Source: Gaiellaceae bacterium (GTDB taxonomy: Bacteria > Actinomycetota > Thermoleophilia > Gaiellales > Gaiellaceae). Taken from it: a stretch of 30,828 bases of DNA. Both the position numbers and the translations under genes were made by a program. The notes under the pieces were generated by a model, which saw nothing but the letters and a program-made list of their open reading frames with translations, was not told the origin of the DNA and ran no database searches. This document shows, in pieces, positions 52 to 6,040 of this stretch. How positions within the stretch are numbered: the stretch's first letter is position 1; the number at the start of each line of letters is the position of its first letter. The stretch is taken from the NCBI GenBank assembly GCA_035634675.1, contig DASQCM010000209.1, forward strand, positions 1 through 30,828. Reading direction: 5' to 3'.

Positions 52-2253
52 GTGACTTCTGTACTCGAGTCGAGGCCGCCCCGCTTCACGGCGAAACAAG
101 CCGCGAAGATCGCGGCCGACGTCTTCGGCATCCACGGGAGCGCCTCCGACCTCGGCAGCGAGCGCGACCAGGCCTTCCTGATCGACGACGACGGCCGGGA
201 TGGCGTGCTCAAGATCTCGAACAGCGGGGAGGATCCTGCGGCGCTCGACCTCGAAGAGTCCGCGATCGCGCACGTTGTCGCCGTCGACCCGGACCTGCCA
301 ATGGCCCGGCCGCTCGCGCCAAGCGAGGCGATCGACGGCCACTTCGTCCGCCTATTCGAGCGCATACGCGGTCGCAAGGCCGGCCCCGAGCTCGACGACG
401 CTGCGGTGCGGCACGTCGCCGCAGTCCACGCACGCCTCTGCCTCGCGCTGCGGTCGTTCTTCCATCCCGCGGCGGGCCGCGAGCTGCTCTGGAACCTCCG
501 CGCGACGCCGCGGCTCCGGCCTCTGCTCGAGGAGATCGAGGAGCCGGAGAGGCAGGCCCTCGCCTCACGGACGATCGCCGGGTTCGAGGAGCGCGTGGCG
601 CCGGAATGGCCGCGCCTGCGGGCGCAGGTCGTGCACGGAGACTTCAACCTCGACAACCTCCTGCTCGACGAGCACGATTGCGTCGTCGGGATCCTCGACT
701 TCGGCGACTGCTGCCACAGCGCGCTCGCGGCCGACGTCGCCGTGCTGCTGGCATCGCTACTGCGCGGCCGCCCGCTGGACGACGCTTTCCGGGTCGCACG
801 GATCGCGCTCGACGGCTTCTCCTCCCGCGTCCCCCTCGAGCAGCTCGAGCTCGAGCTGCTCGGCGACCTTGTCGCCGCACGCCTTGCCGCGATCGTCTCG
901 ATCAGCGCCTGGCGCGGCCGCCGCTTTCCCGAGAATGCCGCCTACATCGAGGCCTGGGACAACGACTCGTGGCAGCTCCTCGAGCTGCTCGACGCGCTCG
1001 ATCCGGCGGAGGTGGCCCGGGAGCTCGGCGCCGGCCGCCGGCCCGTGGTGACCAGCGAGCTCGCTCGAAAGCGCGAGCGGTCGCTCGGCGCGCTCCTGAC
1101 GCCGCTCACGTACGCCCGTCCCGTCCACGCCGTCCGGGCCGAGGGCGTCTGGATCCACGAAGCCGACGGCGCCAGGCTCCTCGACGCCTACAACAACGTC
1201 CCGGTCGTGGGGCACTGCCACCCGCGCGTGACCGAGGCGGTCGTCCGCCAGACCCGGCTGAGCGCGGTGAACGCGCGTTACCTCGCGGAGCCGCTCGTCG
1301 AGCTGGCCGAGCGGCTGCTTGCGACGTTCCCGGAGGAGGCGGGTCTCGACACGGTGCTGCTCGTCAACTCGGGGAGCGAGGCGAACGACCTCGCATGGCG
1401 TCTCGCCGCAGGCGCGACGGGCCGCGACGGGGCGCTCGTGACCGACAACGCATATCACGGCGTCACCACGGCTGCGGCCGCGCTCTCGCCCGAGGACTGG
1501 CCTCCGGGGGACCCGCCGACTCGCATCGCGCGTATCCCACCGCCCGGTAACGGGGCGGCTCTCGACGAAGCGCTCGACGCCGCGCTCGACGAGCTCGACG
1601 GTGACCTCGCCGCGACGTTCCTCGACGGCTCGCTCATGAGCGACGGGATCTTCGTCCCCGAGGCTTCGGAGCTTCGCCTCCTCGTCGACTGGACGCACAA
1701 GGCAGGAGGGCTCTACGTCGCGGACGAGGTCCAGGCCGGCCACGGCCGCCTCGGCCCCGAGCTCTGGTCGTTCGCGCGCCACGGCATCGCACCGGACGTC
1801 GTCTCGCTCGGCAAGCCGATGGGGAACGGCTATCCCGTCGCCGCGGTCGTCACGCGGCGCGAGCTCGCCGAGCGGTTCCCGTATTCAGGCAGGACGTTCT
1901 CCACCTTCGGCGGCAACCCGGTCGCGGCGAGCGCCGCCCTCGCCGTGCTCGACGTGCTCGAAGACGAGCGGCTCCCGGAGCAGGCGGCCGGCGTGGGCGA
2001 GCGCCTGCGAGCAGCGATCGCTGGACTCCGCAAACGGAACGTGGTGGAGGTACGCGGCAGAGGCCTCCTCGCAGGCGTCCAGCTCTCGAGCAGCGAGCTA
2101 GCCGGACGGGTCGTCGACGCGCTACGCGACGAAGGCGTTCTCGTCGGACTGACAGGCAAACACGACGACGTTGTCAAGATCCGGCCGCCGCTCGTCTTCG
2201 GCGACGAGCACGCGGAGCTGCTCGTCACGGCGCTCGACCGCGTCCTGCCCTAA
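52..2253 (+). CDS. Fusion of an APH/choline-kinase-like phosphotransferase (N-term) and a class-III PLP aminotransferase-family domain (C-term); hydroxylysine kinase/phospho-lyase (AGPHD1-AGXT2L)-like, 733 aa
   Basis: N-term ERDQAF, VLKI, HGDFNLDNLL, ILDFGD kinase motifs; C-term LDAYNNVPVVGHCHP, NSGSEANDLA, ADEVQAG, SLGKPMGNG (PLP Lys), STFGGNP, KIRPPL. GTG start 9 nt after a TAGCAT -10-like hexamer. Confidence 0.85.
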   Translation: MTSVLESRPPRFTAKQAAKIAADVFGIHGSASDLGSERDQAFLIDDDGRDGVLKISNSGEDPAALDLEESAIAHVVAVDPDLPMARPLAPSEAIDGHFVRLFERIRGRKAGPELDDAAVRHVAAVHARLCLALRSFFHPAAGRELLWNLRATPRLRPLLEEIEEPERQALASRTIAGFEERVAPEWPRLRAQVVHGDFNLDNLLLDEHDCVVGILDFGDCCHSALAADVAVLLASLLRGRPLDDAFRVARIALDGFSSRVPLEQLELELLGDLVAARLAAIVSISAWRGRRFPENAAYIEAWDNDSWQLLELLDALDPAEVARELGAGRRPVVTSELARKRERSLGALLTPLTYARPVHAVRAEGVWIHEADGARLLDAYNNVPVVGHCHPRVTEAVVRQTRLSAVNARYLAEPLVELAERLLATFPEEAGLDTVLLVNSGSEANDLAWRLAAGATGRDGALVTDNAYHGVTTAAAALSPEDWPPGDPPTRIARIPPPGNGAALDEALDAALDELDGDLAATFLDGSLMSDGIFVPEASELRLLVDWTHKAGGLYVADEVQAGHGRLGPELWSFARHGIAPDVVSLGKPMGNGYPVAAVVTRRELAERFPYSGRTFSTFGGNPVAASAALAVLDVLEDERLPEQAAGVGERLRAAIAGLRKRNVVEVRGRGLLAGVQLSSSELAGRVVDALRDEGVLVGLTGKHDDVVKIRPPLVFGDEHAELLVTALDRVLP

Positions 2254-2292
2254 CAGTGACGTTTCGGCAACGAAGTCGTATCGTCCCGCGCA

Positions 2293-2844
2293 ATGGCCGT
2301 GGAGAAGACCGATGCCCAACTCGTTTCGCGTTGCCGTGACGGCGATCCCGCCGCCTGGAACGAGTTCGTGGAGCGGTTCTCGCGCTACGTCTATGCCATC
2401 TGCGGCCGCGGCTTCCGCCTCGCGCAGCAGGACGCCGAGGACGTCTTCCAGGAAGTCTTCGCCCGCGCCTACGAGCGGCTCCCGGAGCTGCGGAGCGACG
2501 ACGCCGTGCGCCCGTGGCTCGCGCAGCTGACGCGACGCCTCTGCATCGACAAGCTACGCCTGCTCGCGCGCGACACGCCGTCGGACACCGAGCCGGACGA
2601 GCGGGAGGTCGACGACCTGCTCGCGTCGCTCGACGACGCGATGACCGTGCGCGCTGCTCTCGACAAGGTCGGCGACCCGTGTCGCGAGATCCTCGACCGC
2701 TTCTTCTGCCGCGACGAGAGCTATCACACCATCGGCGAGGCCCTCGAAATCCCGGCCGGCACCATCGCCAGCCGCATCTCCCGCTGCCTCGAAAAAGTTC
2801 GTGGAGAATTCGATGGAAGGAGTCGGGGCTCTCGCCCGTCATGA
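2293..2844 (+). CDS. ECF-type sigma-70 factor, 183 aa
   Basis: Region 2 (AWNEFVERF...DAEDVFQEVF...WLAQLTRRLCIDKLR) and region 4 HTH (ESYHTIGEALEIPAGTIASRISR); no region 3. Confidence 0.92.
   Translation: MAVEKTDAQLVSRCRDGDPAAWNEFVERFSRYVYAICGRGFRLAQQDAEDVFQEVFARAYERLPELRSDDAVRPWLAQLTRRLCIDKLRLLARDTPSDTEPDEREVDDLLASLDDAMTVRAALDKVGDPCREILDRFFCRDESYHTIGEALEIPAGTIASRISRCLEKVRGEFDGRSRGSRPS
2815..2842 (+). promoter_or_regulatory. Third ECF-type promoter copy, inside the 3' end of the sigma gene, upstream of the 84-aa ORF
   Basis: GGAAGG-AGTCGGGGCTCTCGCC(16 nt)-CGTCAT; same spacing as the two peptide promoters. Confidence 0.5.
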
Positions 2845-2852
2845 GGAGTGAG

Positions 2853-3107
2853 ATGAACGCTTACGACGAGGAGCGCATCGGCCGCTTGCTACGCCTTCTG
2901 CCACCCGCGCCCGAGGGTTGGGTGCGAGCTGCACAGGAGCTGCCGGCCGCGCGTGCGATGCTCGACGAGCTCGTCGCGCGTGCCGAGCAGGACGCCGCTT
3001 TCCGGCTTCAGCTCCTGGCCGATCTCGAGCGCGCCGTCGCCGCGGCCGGTTACGAGCCCTCGCCGTACGTCGTCTCGCGGCTGCGCCAGCTAATCGAGGC
3101 GGTCTAG
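2853..3107 (+). CDS. 84-aa hypothetical protein; candidate anti-sigma/partner with an NHLP-leader-like C-terminal helix
   Basis: ATG at 2853 after GAGGAG, directly downstream of the sigma gene. MNAYDEERIGRLLRLLPPAPEGWVRAAQELP...LDELVARAEQDAAFRLQLLADLERAVAAAGYEP. This is the 3' part of the 2514..3107 ORF-track entry. Confidence 0.7.
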   Translation: MNAYDEERIGRLLRLLPPAPEGWVRAAQELPAARAMLDELVARAEQDAAFRLQLLADLERAVAAAGYEPSPYVVSRLRQLIEAV

Positions 3108-3145
3108 AACAGCGCGGGACGCGGCCCCGGTGAGACACTGACGCG

Positions 3146-3721
3146 GTGCTCACGGGCCTCTCCCTCCCCGCGCTCCTCGAAGAGCTGGCTGCGCCGCGCG
3201 AGGTTCCGGGCGCCGGCTCCGCTCTCGCAGTCGCCCTGGCGGCGGCAGCCGCCGTCGTGCAGATGACCGCGCGCCTGTCGCCCGAGAGCTGGGCGGAGGC
3301 GGCAGGCGTCGCCGCTCAGGCCGATTCGCTGCGGGAGCGGGCGGCGAGGCTCGTCGACGAGGACGCGGAGGCGTACGGGCGGGCGCTCGAGGCCCGCGCG
3401 GCGGTGGACGAGGGCCAGAAGCCGGAAAGCCGCGACTGGGCTCTCGGGCAGGTCACGGCGGCCGCAGCCGAGCCGCCGCTGGACCTCGCACGCCTGGCCG
3501 CGGACGTGGCGGAGCTCTGCGCGGCCGCCGGCCCGCGGGTGGAGGTGCGCGTCCACGCCGACGTGGCAGCTGCGGCCGCCCTCGCAGCCGCCGTCGCGCG
3601 CGGCGCGCGCGAGCTCGTGGCCGTCAATCTCACCGCCCTCCCAGGTGACGGCCGCATCGAGGAGGCTGACCGGCTCGTCGCAGTCGCCGACGCCGCGGCC
3701 GCGAGGGTCGCCGGCGCATGA
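3146..3721 (+). CDS. Formiminotransferase-cyclodeaminase C-terminal (FTCD_C / cyclodeaminase-cyclohydrolase) family protein, 191 aa
   Basis: SLPALLEELAAPREVPGAGSALA matches the family's PGGGS N-terminal motif; LVDEDAEAY, AAEPPL and RELVAVNL motifs; all-helical and Ala-rich. Confidence 0.75.
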   Translation: MLTGLSLPALLEELAAPREVPGAGSALAVALAAAAAVVQMTARLSPESWAEAAGVAAQADSLRERAARLVDEDAEAYGRALEARAAVDEGQKPESRDWALGQVTAAAAEPPLDLARLAADVAELCAAAGPRVEVRVHADVAAAAALAAAVARGARELVAVNLTALPGDGRIEEADRLVAVADAAAARVAGA

Positions 3722-3722
3722 A

Positions 3723-3749
3723 GAAGGCCCGGCTGAGGACCGGGCCTTC
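3723..3749. terminator. Hairpin between convergent FTCD_C and peptide gene 1 (likely bidirectional terminator)
   Basis: GAAGGCCCGG-ctgagga-CCGGGCCTTC, perfect 10-bp stem; shares its stem sequence with the hairpin at 4036-4063. Confidence 0.7.
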
Positions 3750-3784
3750 AGGTGACACTCAGATTGTTCGCGCGAGAGTCGGAT

Positions 3785-3952
3785 CTAGATGTGGCGGGGC
3801 GAGTCCATCCGGACGTTCGCCTTCCGCACGTGCGCCTCGACCTCGTCCTCGTCGTCGCCCTCGGCGACCGGCTCGTCGGTCATACCGTGACCGCCGCCAT
3901 GACGGACGTGGCCCTCGACCTCGTCCTCGTCCTTGCGCTGCTCGTCCGACAT
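3785..3952 (-). CDS. Small acidic cassette peptide 1 (55 aa), candidate precursor: MSDEQRKDEDEVEGHVRHGGGHGMTDEPVAEGDDEDEVEAHVRKANVRMDSPRHI
   Basis: ATG at 3952 preceded by AAGGAGGAGCA; paralogous to 4080..4274; own promoter-like motif and downstream hairpin. The true start is internal to the 126-aa ORF-track entry. Confidence 0.85.
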   Translation of the reverse strand: MSDEQRKDEDEVEGHVRHGGGHGMTDEPVAEGDDEDEVEAHVRKANVRMDSPRHI

Positions 3953-3995
3953 TGCTCCTCCTTGGAATCTCTGCGCCATCCGGCGCTGTCGACCA

Positions 3996-4025
3996 CTAGA
4001 CGACGGACGCCGGACAAATCTTCCC
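3996..4025 (-). promoter_or_regulatory. Putative ECF-sigma promoter of peptide gene 1
   Basis: Minus strand reads GGGAAGA-TTTGTCCGGCGTCCGT(16 nt)-CGTCTAG; same boxes and spacing as 4325-4354. Confidence 0.7.
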
Positions 4026-4033
4026 GGGACCGC

Positions 4034-4063
4034 AAAAAGGCCCGGCACTCGGGCCGGGCCTTT
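4034..4063 (-). terminator. Rho-independent terminator after peptide gene 2
   Basis: 11-bp stem AAAGGCCCGGC/GCCGGGCCTTT with a 6-nt loop, ending in a T5 run on the minus strand, about 16 nt after the stop codon. Confidence 0.8.
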
Positions 4064-4079
4064 CGCGTGAAAGGTAGGC

Positions 4080-4274
4080 CTAGATGTGCCGCGGCTGGGA
4101 CTTGCGAACGTGCGCCTCGACCTCGTCGTCGCTCTCGGGCTCGTCGTTGATTCCGTGGCCGCCACCGTGGCGGACGTGGCCCTCGACGTCGCTCTCGTCG
4201 GTCATACCGTGACCGCCGCCATGACGGACGTGGCCCTCGACCTCGTCCTCGTCCTTGCGCACCTCGTCCGACAT
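4080..4274 (-). CDS. Small acidic cassette peptide 2 (64 aa), candidate precursor: MSDEVRKDEDEVEGHVRHGGGHGMTDESDVEGHVRHGGGHGINDEPESDDEVEAHVRKSQPRHI
   Basis: ATG preceded by AAAGGAGGAGCA; three [D/E]VE[G/A]HVR cassettes; the two HVRHGGGHG copies differ at 5 synonymous positions with no amino-acid change. Confidence 0.88.
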   Translation of the reverse strand: MSDEVRKDEDEVEGHVRHGGGHGMTDESDVEGHVRHGGGHGINDEPESDDEVEAHVRKSQPRHI

Positions 4275-4324
4275 TGCTCCTCCTTTAGAAGTCTTTGCGC
4301 CTCGTATGTGGCGCTGTCATCTCT

Positions 4325-4354
4325 CTAGACGGTCCTGGGAGGACGAATCTTCCC
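4325..4354 (-). promoter_or_regulatory. Putative ECF-sigma promoter of peptide gene 2
   Basis: Minus strand reads GGGAAGA-TTCGTCCTCCCAGGAC(16 nt)-CGTCTAG. Confidence 0.7.
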
Positions 4355-4399
4355 ACCGACCCTTCAAATTCGCAACACAGCCTGAGATCCTCCTCGGTT

Positions 4400-6040
4400 G
4401 TGAGCCCCTTCGCCGCTTCGCTCCACGCCTTTCGGGGGGTCTTCGCGAACCGGCAGGTTCGCAAGCTCCAGATCGCCGACGTCGGCGCGACCCTTGGCGG
4501 CTGGGCCTACGCCGTCGCGCTACCCGTCTACGCCTACCACGCCGGCGGCGCCCGCGCCGTCGGGCTCCTGTTCTTCGCCCGCTTCGTCTTCGCAGCCCTC
4601 GCTGCTCCGTGGCTCGGCGTCGCCGCCGACCGTTGGTCGCGGCGCCAGCTGATGTTGATCACGGACATCTTCCGAGCCGCACTCTGCGGCGGCATGACGG
4701 CCGTGGCCGTCACCAGCGGCAACGCCTACGCCGTCTACGTGCTGGCGGTGCTCTCGTCGGTGGCATCCGTGGCGTACAGCCCGGCACAGGGAGCACTGCT
4801 GCCGTTGCTCGTAGAGACTCCCGAAGAGCTCACCGCAGCGAACGTCGTCAGCAACACCATCTCGAGCGTGGGCATGTTCGCCGGACCGGCGCTCGGCGGG
4901 ATATTGCTGGCGCTGAGCGGACCCGCCGCTGTCTTCGCCTTCAACGGCGCCGTCCTCGTCTGGTCGGCGGCTTTCGTAGTCCAGGTGCCGCGCGACAAAC
5001 CACCCGAGAGAACGGAGCGCCCGCGCCTCTGGCCGGAGCTGACAGCGGGATTCTCAGCGGTGCTGCGACGGCCGGCGCTCAGAGTCATCGTCGGCCTCAC
5101 CGGTGCCCAGACCCTTACGTCAGGTCTGCTCGAGGTGCTGCTCGTGGTACTGGCCATCAACCTTCTCCACGCTGGCAATGCCGGGGTCGGCTGGCTCAAC
5201 GCCGCGATCGGCATCGGCAGCATCGTGGGCGCCTTCGTCGTAGCCGTCGTCGCCGCACGGCGTCGGCTTGCAACAGGCTTCGCGCTCGGGATCGTCGTCT
5301 CGGTGGTCCCGATCGCGCTCGCCGCGGGGGTCTCCACGCTGGCACCTGCACTCGTCCTCTTCGGCATCATCGGTGCCGGCTCCGTCCTCGTGGAGGTGGG
5401 AGGGATCACGCTGCTCCAGCGCTCGACCGAGAACGAGGTGCTAGGGCGCGTCTTCGCCGTCATGGAGACCACGATCCTCGGCGCGCTGGCCATCGGCTCG
5501 CTCGTGGCGCCGGCCCTCGTGAGCTGGCTCGGCTCGAAGGGCGCGCTTATCGCGACAGGCGTCTTCTTACCCCCGCTTCTCCTGCCGCTCTGGCCGAGCC
5601 TGCGGCGCATCGATGCCGAGGCTGTGATCGCGGAAGAGCCGCTCGAGCTGCTCCGGAGGATCGAGATCTTCGCGGAACTGCCGGAGCCTGTGCTCGAGCG
5701 GCTGGCGGGCGGCGCGACCGGAGTTTCCACGGCCGCGGGTCAGGTCGTGATCGCCCTGGGAGAGGTCGGCAACCACTACTACGTCATCGCAGCGGGACGG
5801 GCCGTCGTCGAGCCCGAGGAGGGCGCGAAGCGGGAACTCGGGCCCGGCGAGGGGTTCGGCGAGATCGCCCTACTGCGCGACGTGCCGCGAACGGCAACGG
5901 TGCGGGCGGTCGAACCGCTCCAGCTCTACGCGATCAAGCGTGACGACTTCCTCGCCGCGGTCACCGGACATGCGCCGACCCTCGCGGCGGCGGAGAACTT
6001 CGTCCTGTCGCGTCTTCCCGCAGGCGCGCTTCTCGGCTAG
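4400..6040 (+). CDS. MFS transporter fused to a C-terminal cyclic-nucleotide-binding (CAP_ED) domain, about 546 aa
   Basis: About 12 hydrophobic segments, motif A-like GVAADRWSRR; C-term GEVGNHYYVI and GEGFGEIALLRDVPRTATV phosphate-binding cassette. GTG 4400 chosen as start because it follows a TGA-GATCCT -10-like element. Confidence 0.88.
   Translation: MSPFAASLHAFRGVFANRQVRKLQIADVGATLGGWAYAVALPVYAYHAGGARAVGLLFFARFVFAALAAPWLGVAADRWSRRQLMLITDIFRAALCGGMTAVAVTSGNAYAVYVLAVLSSVASVAYSPAQGALLPLLVETPEELTAANVVSNTISSVGMFAGPALGGILLALSGPAAVFAFNGAVLVWSAAFVVQVPRDKPPERTERPRLWPELTAGFSAVLRRPALRVIVGLTGAQTLTSGLLEVLLVVLAINLLHAGNAGVGWLNAAIGIGSIVGAFVVAVVAARRRLATGFALGIVVSVVPIALAAGVSTLAPALVLFGIIGAGSVLVEVGGITLLQRSTENEVLGRVFAVMETTILGALAIGSLVAPALVSWLGSKGALIATGVFLPPLLLPLWPSLRRIDAEAVIAEEPLELLRRIEIFAELPEPVLERLAGGATGVSTAAGQVVIALGEVGNHYYVIAAGRAVVEPEEGAKRELGPGEGFGEIALLRDVPRTATVRAVEPLQLYAIKRDDFLAAVTGHAPTLAAAENFVLSRLPAGALLG

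What the first reader, a model, noticed from the sequence alone, without database searches (positions are those of the whole stretch)
2815..4354. Three copies of an ECF-type promoter (GGAAG[A/G]-N16-CGTC) define a local regulon
Seen: GGAAGA-N16-CGTCTA upstream of both peptide genes (3996-4025 and 4325-4354, minus), where the boxes are conserved but much of the spacer differs. GGAAGG-N16-CGTCAT lies in the last codons of the sigma gene (2815-2842), 10 nt before the 84-aa ORF. Established: ECF promoters commonly have a GGAA/GAAC -35 and a CGT/GTC -10. Inference: the adjacent ECF sigma (2293-2844) drives the peptide genes and its putative partner. The third copy cannot be explained by the peptide-gene duplication.
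Basis: partly seen in the sequence, partly recalled or inferred. Interest (0 to 1): 0.72.

Follow-up and report, generated by a model that had tools for sequence, protein, structure and literature searches.

The report
ECF sigma promoter and small regulon
A soil actinobacterium (family Gaiellaceae) carries an alternative sigma factor whose predicted promoter, GGAAGR-N16-CGTC, precedes its likely inhibitor gene and a few small acidic histidine-repeat peptide genes; comparison with about 100 related genomes supports this, but the circuit is of a known type.

Summary
All three GGAAGR-N16-CGTC sites lie where stated.

**Peptide promoters.** In 80 related Gaiellaceae loci, 95 of 101 peptide genes picked by protein features alone carry the strict motif. 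The spacing is fixed at 16 nt and the spacer sequence varies.

**The third copy.** It lies in the last codons of the sigma gene and is not chance. All 100 sigma/84-aa-ORF loci examined have the motif or a one-mismatch variant (92 strict, 8 variants), including one locus where the sigma tail is read in another frame. It ends 7-10 nt before the ORF's start codon in most loci, which implies a leaderless or near-leaderless mRNA.

**Own genome.** Only four sites score high: the three peptide genes (one is on another contig) and the sigma 3' end.

**The 84-aa protein.** A complex model gives ipSAE 0.84 against a best control of 0.01. Its N-terminal part sits between sigma domains 2 and 4, as an anti-sigma factor would.

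**Sigma's own promoter.** No copy of the motif lies upstream of the sigma gene, which appears to use a housekeeping-type leaderless promoter. The wiring is therefore negative feedback, as in Corynebacterium glutamicum sigH-rshA.

**RNA.** Contigs from four soil metatranscriptomes cover peptide gene B only between its promoter and terminator.

**Not shown.** Sigma dependence and exact transcription start sites are untested. This is a new member of a known kind.

The parts
2256..2284 (+). Putative housekeeping (SigA-type) promoter of the sigma gene. -35-like GTGACG at 2256-2261, 17-nt spacer, -10 TATCGT at 2279-2284, 8 nt before the ATG. No Shine-Dalgarno sequence, so the sigma mRNA is probably leaderless.
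   Evidence: Inference. A TANNNT hexamer ends 6-10 nt before the sigma start in 46 of 59 loci, and an SD-like sequence is present in only 2 of 59. The generic sigma-70 scan found nothing at its 9-of-12 threshold.
2293..2844 (+). ECF (group 4) sigma factor, 183 aa.
   Evidence: Pfam Sigma70_r2 and Sigma70_r4, and TIGR02937 at 83.6 bits. A profile of orthologues matches solved ECF sigmas (AlgU, RpoE, SigW, SigE) at E about 1e-16. Orthologues occur in 22 of 41 related genomes.
2815..2843 (+). ECF-type promoter inside the last codons of the sigma gene. -35 GGAAGG at 2815-2820, 16-nt spacer, -10 CGTCAT at 2837-2842, then the invariant G at 2843. It would drive the 84-aa ORF and probably the next gene.
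   Evidence: Present in 20 of 20 loci and in 72 of 80 further loci, with the other 8 as one-mismatch variants. It is kept in L020, where the sigma tail is read in another frame, and in L021-L025, where the sigma stop lies inside the spacer.
2853..3107 (+). 84-aa soluble partner of the sigma, a probable anti-sigma factor. The N-terminal part (residues 3-34) is predicted to bind the sigma. The C-terminal half resembles an NHLP / 'Frankia peptide' RiPP leader. An alternative ATG at 2841 overlaps the sigma stop codon (ATGA), which suggests translational coupling.
   Evidence: Complex model: ipSAE 0.84 against a best control of 0.01. The interface involves sigma residues 19-60 and 112-173. PF14407 is matched by 25 of 26 orthologues, all below the family cut-off. 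The sigma gene lies directly upstream in 79 of 80 loci.
3146..3721 (+). FTCD_C-like (cyclodeaminase / cyclohydrolase-like) protein, probably co-transcribed with the 84-aa ORF.
   Evidence: Pfam FTCD_C, E 5e-23. Metatranscriptome contigs at 2976-3182 and 2937-3109 reach across the ORF84 stop codon, and the first also reaches the FTCD_C start. The gene is syntenic with sigma/ORF84 in the genus and adjacent to the sigma in family f5.
3726..3741 (-). Intrinsic terminator hairpin after peptide gene A.
   Evidence: Terminator scan.
3785..3952 (-). Peptide gene A. 55 aa, acidic, with [DE]VE[AG]H cassettes.
   Evidence: ORF list. Paralogue of gene B. No Pfam or NCBIfam family.
3973..3986 (-). Hairpin near the 5' end of the peptide A leader (GCGCC, 4-nt loop, GGCGC), followed by the Shine-Dalgarno sequence GGAGGAG.
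   Evidence: A hairpin starts 10-11 nt after the -10 hexamer in 79 of 108 peptide leaders. In 85 of 108 the fold energy is -5 kcal/mol or lower.
3996..4024 (-). ECF-type promoter of peptide gene A. -35 GGAAGA at 4024-4019, -10 CGTCTA at 4002-3997, G at 3996.
   Evidence: score 27.3.
4039..4055 (-). Intrinsic terminator after peptide gene B: 6 G-C pairs followed by a T run.
   Evidence: Terminator scan.
4080..4274 (-). Peptide gene B. 64 aa, acidic, with three [DE]VE[AG]H cassettes. Found as a short RNA in soil metatranscriptomes.
   Evidence: Metatranscriptome contigs of 220, 235 and 228 nt match 4080-4299, 4067-4301 and 4077-4303 with no mismatch, in three different studies. Depth is zero over 4356-4500 and 3971-4047.
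4296..4313 (-). Hairpin near the 5' end of the peptide B leader (GCGCC, 8-nt loop, GGCGC).
4325..4353 (-). ECF-type promoter of peptide gene B. -35 GGAAGA at 4353-4348, -10 CGTCTA at 4331-4326, G at 4325.
   Evidence: score 34.9.

Best explanation
GGAAG(A/G)-N16-CGTC(T/A)NG is the cognate promoter of the ECF sigma factor encoded at 2293-2844 in this Gaiellaceae genome.

**Proposed circuit**
1. The sigma gene is transcribed, probably without a leader, from a housekeeping-type promoter. It shares that mRNA with the 84-aa gene, whose translation is coupled to it.
2. The 84-aa protein clamps its N-terminal helices between sigma domains 2 and 4 and holds the sigma inactive.
3. When the sigma is released by an unknown signal, it initiates at the three promoters in the window and at two more elsewhere in the genome.

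**The promoters**
- One lies in the sigma gene's own last codons. It gives a leaderless or near-leaderless mRNA for the 84-aa inhibitor and the FTCD_C-like gene downstream. This is negative feedback that shuts the response off.
- One lies in front of each peptide gene. Each gives a short monocistronic mRNA with a hairpin near its 5' end, a strong ribosome-binding site and its own terminator. The products are small, acidic, probably disordered His-repeat peptides.

**Status of each step**
- Shown: the motif, its conservation, its positions and the presence of peptide RNA.
- Modelled: sigma/ORF84 binding.
- Inferred: which sigma reads the motif, the transcription start sites, the inhibitory role of ORF84 and the function of the peptides.
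For: **The motif and its conservation**
- The motif lies exactly at the three stated places.
- All 20 sigma-orthologue loci (56-100% identity, four genera in three families) carry it at the sigma 3' end. It ends 5-10 nt before the conserved small ORF. It persists where the sigma tail is read in another frame (L020) and where the stop codon lies inside the spacer (L021-L025).
- In 80 further Gaiellaceae loci, 72 are strict matches and 8 are one-mismatch variants. The sigma gene is directly upstream in 79 of 80.

**Peptide genes**
- 95 of 101 peptide genes, chosen by protein features alone, have the strict N16 motif within 110 nt upstream.
- The boxes and the G after the hexamer are invariant while the spacers vary.

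**Specificity**
- A weight-matrix scan of the own genome gives four sites at 27-37 and the next best at 17.9.
- A stringent 29-mer form gives 68 hits in 121 genomes of the order, against 7 for the reversed control. At least one hit occurs in 33 of 65 ORF84-positive genomes and in 5 of 56 ORF84-negative genomes.

**Proteins**
- The sigma is an ECF sigma.
- The complex model scores ipSAE 0.84. The best of 3 controls scores 0.01. The calibration mark was reached by 58 of 80 solved complexes and 2 of 110 mismatched pairs. The interface covers both sigma domains.

**RNA**
- Contigs from four soil metatranscriptome studies cover peptide gene B from 4067-4080 to 4286-4303 and nothing beyond the promoter or terminator.
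- Terminators follow both peptide genes.

**Precedent**
- C. glutamicum sigH-rshA has the same wiring (PMC3489674).
Against: - No experiment links this sigma to the motif. The genome encodes at least 29 sigma-70-family proteins, so another ECF sigma cannot be excluded.
- The -35 box has G where most ECF promoters have the C of 'AAC'.
- No copy of the motif lies upstream of the sigma gene, which is atypical for ECF sigmas.
- The RNA evidence consists of assembled contigs, not reads. Their upstream ends (4299-4303) lie 12-21 nt short of the predicted start (4315-4320), so they could also reflect a processed 5' end.
- In one clade the ORF84 start lies 16 nt after the -10 box, so the mRNA is not strictly leaderless everywhere.
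- ORF84 has no fold or family match to known anti-sigma domains.
- The related loci are kin, so the counts overstate independent support.
Confidence: 0.78

Rival explanations
1. The motif is a real ECF-type promoter, but a different sigma factor encoded elsewhere in the genome reads it. The adjacent sigma/ORF84 pair is then a target of that sigma, not the regulator.
For: The genome has at least 29 sigma-70-family genes.
Against: The motif is physically tied to this sigma gene in 100 of 100 loci across several families. The stringent motif is enriched only in genomes that carry the pair. No close paralogue of the sigma exists in the own genome at E of 1e-20 or below. A sigma-dependent promoter for the sigma's own anti-sigma factor is a known design (PMC3489674).
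Confidence: 0.12
2. The two conserved boxes are the operator of a DNA-binding regulator (repressor or activator) and not a promoter. Transcription starts elsewhere.
For: No transcription start site has been mapped. Sequence downstream of the -10 box (GAGAGATGAC and the GCGCC hairpin) is also conserved in the peptide leaders, so other regulatory elements exist there.
Against: The boxes are neither direct nor inverted repeats of each other. The rigid 16-nt spacing with a free spacer, and the GGAA / CGTC content, are the ECF promoter pattern. At ORF84 the motif ends 7-10 nt before a start codon that often has no Shine-Dalgarno sequence, which fits a leaderless start. RNA contigs of peptide B begin downstream of the boxes, and depth is zero upstream of them.
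Confidence: 0.05
3. The third copy (2815-2842) is a chance match, or a by-product of the codons for the sigma's C-terminal tail. The 84-aa ORF is then expressed only from the sigma mRNA.
For: The loose pattern occurs 34 times in the genome. In this window a good Shine-Dalgarno sequence and an ATGA overlap already explain coupled translation.
Against: The motif is kept when the tail is read in a different frame (L020, L084, L086, L088). It is also kept when the stop codon falls inside the spacer, so that the -10 box is non-coding (L021-L025, L109, L115). In distant families it is even closer to the peptide-promoter consensus, GGAAGAT..CGTCTRG.
Confidence: 0.03

Closest known systems
Corynebacterium glutamicum sigH-rshA operon (Busche et al. 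2012, PMC3489674)
   Same: - The ECF sigma and its anti-sigma factor are co-transcribed from housekeeping (SigA-type) promoters.
- An extra sigma-dependent promoter upstream of the anti-sigma gene drives the anti-sigma gene alone. The authors propose that it shuts the response off.
- Its -35 box is TGGAAGA, the same core as here.
   Different: - RshA is a zinc-binding (ZAS) redox sensor. ORF84 has no Cys or His and no ZAS motif.
- The SigH -10 box is GTT, not CGTC.
- The rshA start sites lie 62-66 nt upstream of its start codon. Here the promoter abuts the start codon.
- The regulon there has about 60 transcription units of thiol and heat stress genes. Here it is a handful of peptide genes.
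Generic ECF sigma / anti-sigma modules (classification of Casas-Pastor et al. 2021, PMC7826278)
   Same: - The sigma has two domains, sigma-2 and sigma-4.
- A small partner is encoded immediately downstream.
- The promoter is bipartite, with a GGAA-type -35 box, a CGTC-type -10 box and rigid spacing.
- The regulon is small.
   Different: - No positive autoregulation was detected.
- The -35 box reads AAG instead of the usual AAC.
- The partner belongs to no described anti-sigma family.
- The ECF group could not be assigned, because the group HMMs are not available here and the paper's text and held files gave nothing on this motif.
NHLP / 'Frankia peptide' RiPP leader domains (PF14407, NF038399)
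   Same: Residues 37-80 of ORF84 align to the leader part of these profiles in 25 of 26 orthologues.
   Different: - Scores are below the family cut-offs (33 against 48 bits).
- No core peptide follows the domain.
- The protein is paired with a sigma factor, not with a modifying enzyme.

Membership tests
ECF (group 4) sigma-70 factors | Only regions 2 and 4 are present, and the protein is about 170-200 aa. | tested here: met
   183 aa. Pfam Sigma70_r2 (residues 26-90) and Sigma70_r4 (123-170). TIGR02937 scores 83.6 bits against a cut-off of 42.9. PDB profile hits are all ECF sigmas.
ECF (group 4) sigma-70 factors | The cognate promoter has an AAC-containing -35 box and a CGT-containing -10 box at fixed spacing. 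| tested here: inconclusive
   The -10 box CGTC and the rigid 16-nt spacing are met. The -35 box is GGAAG(A/G), with G in place of the usual C. Recognition by this sigma is not shown.
ECF (group 4) sigma-70 factors | Positive autoregulation from a copy of the target promoter upstream of the sigma gene (common but not universal). | tested here: not met
   No motif lies upstream of the sigma gene in the window or in the related loci. A TANNNT box is found there instead, in 46 of 59 loci.
ECF (group 4) sigma-70 factors | A co-transcribed anti-sigma factor binds sigma-2 and sigma-4. | tested here: inconclusive
   The complex model scores ipSAE 0.84 against a best control of 0.01, with contacts on both domains. 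There is an ATGA overlap and universal adjacency. This is a model only, and inhibition has not been tested.
ECF12 SigH/SigR with ZAS anti-sigma factor (RshA/RsrA) | The anti-sigma factor carries the HxxxCxxC zinc motif. | tested here: not met
   The window's ORF84 has no Cys and no His, and no column of the orthologue alignment has a conserved Cys or His.
ECF12 SigH/SigR with ZAS anti-sigma factor (RshA/RsrA) | Promoter GGAAT-N16-19-GTT. | tested here: not met
   The -10 box is (C)GTC in all sites. The consensus was taken from PMC3489674.
Class I anti-sigma domain (ASD) proteins | Helical ASD fold recognisable by structure or profile. | tested here: inconclusive
   The AlphaFold model has three helices and mean pLDDT 83.5. 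Foldseek against the PDB gives no hit below E 3.8. There is no anti-sigma family hit in Pfam. Small helical proteins are hard to match, so this is not evidence of difference.
NHLP-clan / PF14407 RiPP precursor peptides | Profile match above the family cut-off, and a core peptide after the leader. | tested here: not met
   33.3 bits against a cut-off of 48, and 34.2 against 40 for NF038399. The protein ends with the leader-like domain. The similarity is reproducible, in 25 of 26 orthologues.

The most novel reading that the evidence does not exclude
The 84-aa protein founds an undescribed class of soluble anti-sigma factor. A short N-terminal segment clamps the sigma and is fused to a RiPP-leader-like (NHLP / PF14407-like) domain.

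That leader-like domain would be the signal input. It would be recognised or cut by the leader-handling machinery encoded nearby in the genus, namely the cytoplasmic S8 protease with its GAF protein. Peptide processing would then control the very sigma that transcribes the hypervariable His-repeat peptide genes.

Such a circuit would couple a RiPP-type recognition module to transcription in one of the most abundant uncultured soil actinobacterial families.
Probability: 0.2. Interest if true: 0.75.

Novelty: new member of a known kind. Interest (0 to 1): 0.5.

Why it matters
Gaiellaceae are common soil bacteria with almost no cultured members and no experimental genetics. This analysis gives them a high-confidence sigma factor / promoter / regulon assignment from sequence alone.

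- The promoter consensus is precise and can be used for annotation and reporter design.
- The feedback wiring is conserved across the order.
- The target genes, small acidic His-repeat peptides, are detectably transcribed in soil metatranscriptomes.

It also flags a partner protein that matches no known anti-sigma family. The circuit type itself (ECF sigma, anti-sigma factor, cognate promoter, negative feedback) is well known, so a specialist would find it useful but not surprising.

Tried and rejected
- **ECF group assignment.** No ECF-group HMMs are available. The text of the reclassification paper has nothing on this motif and none of its supplements is held. A literature search for Gaiella ECF sigmas found nothing relevant.
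- **Fold search for ORF84.** Foldseek against the PDB gave no meaningful match, best E 3.8.
- **Feature search in the ESM Atlas.** ORF84 and peptide B fall only into clusters of hypothetical actinobacterial proteins. Peptide B is modelled as disordered, pLDDT 0.33.
- **Homologues of peptide B.** 23 proteins were found, all unnamed or 'hypothetical' and none with a Pfam domain.
- **Rfam.** The region 2200-4500 gave only a sub-threshold terminator-like hit, so the leader hairpin is not a described RNA family.
- **Generic sigma-70 promoter scan.** It found no site at its threshold, so the housekeeping promoter proposed for the sigma gene rests on conservation only.
- **Motif upstream of the sigma gene (autoregulation).** Searched for and not found.
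- **Loose pattern as a genome-wide regulon finder.** Rejected as too frequent: 34 hits in the own genome and 25-37 per related genome, against 11-19 for the reversed control.
- **Exact start-site mapping.** Not possible.
Full report
**1. The observation**

The window is contig C209 of a 2.0-Mb, 70% G+C metagenome-assembled genome that is 74% complete. Titles of related records place it in the Gaiellaceae (Gaiellales, Thermoleophilia).

GGAAGR-N16-CGTC occurs at 2815-2840 (+), 4024-3999 (-) and 4353-4328 (-), exactly as reported. Shuffles predict 0.34 matches per window.

The loose pattern is not rare. There are 34 copies in the genome, so the three hits prove little by themselves.

The two minus-strand sites lie 44 and 51 nt upstream of two tandem paralogous genes for acidic peptides of 55 and 64 aa. 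An alignment of the two units shows conserved boxes, a diverged 16-nt spacer, a conserved leader and a strong Shine-Dalgarno sequence. Each gene is followed by an intrinsic terminator.

**2. Comparative evidence for the peptide promoters**

A third paralogue sits on contig C37 of the same genome. It has GGAAGA-N16-CGTCTG at the same distance upstream. Eleven peptide genes from four genomes all carry the motif.

In 80 further Gaiellaceae loci I picked peptide genes by protein features only: 35-170 aa, at least 20% acidic residues, at least two [DE][VFIL][ED][AGS]H cassettes and a Shine-Dalgarno sequence. The results for the 110 nt upstream were:

| Class | Genes (of 101) |
|---|---|
| Strict motif, N16 | 95 |
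| N15 or N17 spacing | 1 |
| Relaxed variant | 4 |
| No motif | 1 |

The spacing is always 16 nt, the spacer sequence is free, and the base after the -10 hexamer is always G.

The leaders share a G+C-rich hairpin that starts 10-11 nt after the hexamer in 79 of 108 cases. It would therefore lie within a few nucleotides of the predicted 5' end of the mRNA.

**3. The third copy is conserved, not chance**

In all 20 loci that hold an orthologue of the sigma, the motif lies at the sigma 3' end and ends 5-10 nt before the start of a conserved 84-98-aa ORF. These loci have 56-100% identity to the window's sigma and come from four genera in three families.

Three observations exclude a coding by-product:
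- In L020 the sigma tail is read in another frame and has a different peptide sequence, yet the DNA boxes and spacing are kept.
- In L021-L025 the sigma stop codon lies inside the spacer, so the -10 box is non-coding.
- In the distant families the site reads GGAAGAT..CGTCTRG, closer to the peptide-promoter consensus than in the window.

In 80 more loci, 72 have the strict motif and the other 8 are single-mismatch variants (GGAAGC, GGTCTAG, AGTCTGG, or T after the hexamer). The sigma gene is directly upstream in 79 of 80.

The gap between the -10 hexamer and the start codon is 7-10 nt in most loci, often with no Shine-Dalgarno sequence. One clade has 16 nt. This is the geometry of a leaderless or near-leaderless mRNA, which is common in Actinobacteria (established knowledge).

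In the window, an ATGA overlap at 2841-2844 and a GAGGAG box also allow coupled translation from the sigma mRNA.

**4. Specificity and phyletic link**

A weight matrix built from the sites scores four places in the own genome at 27-37: the sigma 3' end and the three peptide genes. The next best place scores 17.9.

One lower-scoring site with perfect boxes (C164:14581) lies just after a stop codon. It precedes a 257-aa protein that has a C-terminal membrane anchor and the sequence SEVEAHG.

Relatives have further sites 6-9 nt before the start codon of other small genes. One is a recurrent 66-68-aa protein.

A stringent 29-mer form of the motif gives 68 hits in 121 genomes of the order, against 7 for the reversed control. 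Hits are present in 33 of 65 genomes that encode ORF84 and in 5 of 56 that do not, and those five have one hit each, close to the control rate. The ORF84-positive count includes G084, an unpublished genome with no motif hit. Without it the figure is 33 of 64. The genomes are related, so these are descriptive counts and not independent trials.

**5. The proteins**

The sigma has regions 2 and 4 only and matches TIGR02937 and solved ECF sigmas.

The 84-aa protein has no Cys or His, no membrane segment and no anti-sigma family match. Its C-terminal half matches the leader part of PF14407 / NF038399 (NHLP clan) below the cut-offs, reproducibly in 25 of 26 orthologues.

A complex prediction with my own alignments gave ipSAE 0.84-0.85 in three runs, against a best control of 0.01. 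The calibration mark was reached by 58 of 80 solved complexes and 2 of 110 mismatched pairs. These counts hold only roughly here, because my own alignments were used. Contacts involve sigma residues 19-60 (domain 2) and 112-173 (domain 4), and ORF84 residues 3-34 and 71-76. This is the topology expected of an anti-sigma factor. It is a model, not a measurement.

The monomer model has three helices and mean pLDDT 83.5, with no fold match in the PDB.

**6. The sigma's own transcription**

No copy of the motif lies upstream of the sigma gene in any locus. Instead, a TANNNT hexamer ends 6-10 nt before the start codon in 46 of 59 loci, and an SD-like sequence is present in only 2 of 59. In the window the hexamer is TATCGT at 2279-2284, with GTGACG 17 nt upstream.

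I infer a housekeeping-type, leaderless sigma mRNA. The only feedback seen is therefore negative: active sigma makes more of its inhibitor.

**7. RNA evidence**

Four soil or rhizosphere metatranscriptome runs from different studies hold contigs that match peptide gene B, three of them with no mismatch: 4080-4299, 4067-4301, 4077-4303 and 4080-4286. Word depth over gene B is 3-231.

Depth is zero over the promoter and the upstream region (4356-4500). It is also zero over 3971-4047, the stretch between the two genes that holds most of B's terminator and A's promoter. It is near zero over most of the sigma gene.

Two contigs (2976-3182 and 2937-3109) reach across the ORF84 stop codon, and the first also reaches the FTCD_C start.

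These results show a short, separately bounded peptide transcript with silent flanks, which argues against DNA carry-over. They do not map the start. The contig ends lie 12-21 nt short of the predicted start and inside the leader hairpin.

**8. Comparison with known systems**

The closest known wiring is C. glutamicum sigH-rshA. There the sigma and anti-sigma factor are co-transcribed from SigA promoters, and an additional SigH-dependent promoter (-35 box TGGAAGA) drives rshA alone. The authors propose that it shuts the response down (PMC3489674).

The present system differs in several ways:
- The -10 box is CGTC, not GTT.
- The anti-sigma factor is not a ZAS protein.
- The promoter abuts the start codon.
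- The regulon is small and peptide-centred.

I could not assign an ECF group.

**9. Verdict**

It needs three refinements: a leaderless anti-sigma transcript, no positive autoregulation, and at least two further regulon members outside the window.

This is a new, well-supported member of a known kind of circuit. The unusual partner protein and the hypervariable, transcribed peptides are the parts most worth pursuing.

Noticed in passing
window 3973-3986 and 4296-4313 (-); also 108 peptide leaders in L001-L121: A G+C-rich hairpin (GCGCC, variable loop, GGCGC) starts 10-11 nt after the -10 hexamer in most peptide leaders. It would lie within a few nucleotides of the predicted mRNA 5' end and may be a stabilising 5' stem-loop. 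The metatranscriptome contigs end inside it.
   Followed up: partly
G000 contig C164:14581-14609 (+), gene from 14641: A fifth site with perfect boxes (GGAAGATT..CGTCTGG) lies directly after a stop codon. It precedes a 257-aa protein with a C-terminal membrane anchor and an SEVEAHG motif like the peptide cassettes.
   Followed up: partly
L097, L098, L099, L106, L116 (about 1.1 kb downstream of ORF84, opposite strand); G032:C4:235014: A small protein recurs in other Gaiellaceae clades (66-68 aa, conserved ARxRHADLLREA). Its start codon lies 9 nt after the same promoter, so it is probably another leaderless regulon member. The G032 site has a similar N-terminus with its start 6 nt after the promoter.
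   Followed up: no
window 3146-3721 (+); L039 5308-5886: An FTCD_C-like helical protein stays next to the sigma/ORF84 pair across families. It is downstream of ORF84 in the genus and upstream of the sigma in family f5. It appears co-transcribed with ORF84 in metatranscriptome contigs. Its role in the module is unknown.
   Followed up: partly
window 4382-6040 (+) and G000 contig C37, upstream of position 1950 (-): The gene for an MFS transporter fused to a cNMP-binding domain has a paralogue directly upstream of the third peptide gene on C37. The association of peptide and MFS-cNMP genes therefore occurs twice in this genome. It is also syntenic in the genus, together with a GAF protein and a cytoplasmic S8 protease.
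   Followed up: partly
L042-L121 peptide genes: The peptide family is hypervariable. Cassette number ranges from 1 to about 8 and length from 44 to about 150 aa. The inter-cassette sequence differs between strains (for example PPKYGANDEP, GSYGANDEQR, HKASHKAS), while the N-terminus MSDEQRKDEE and the [DE]VE[AG]H cassette are kept.
   Followed up: no
window 2279-2292 (+): The sigma gene itself seems to be leaderless. TATCGT lies 8 nt before the ATG and there is no Shine-Dalgarno sequence. This is conserved in most orthologous loci, even where the upstream gene differs.
   Followed up: partly
window about 4286-4296 (-), run X15: One metatranscriptome contig of a strain variant of peptide B runs straight into Illumina adapter sequence about 10 nt beyond 4286. 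This hints at a fixed RNA end, either primary or processed, near the 3' side of the leader hairpin.
   Followed up: no
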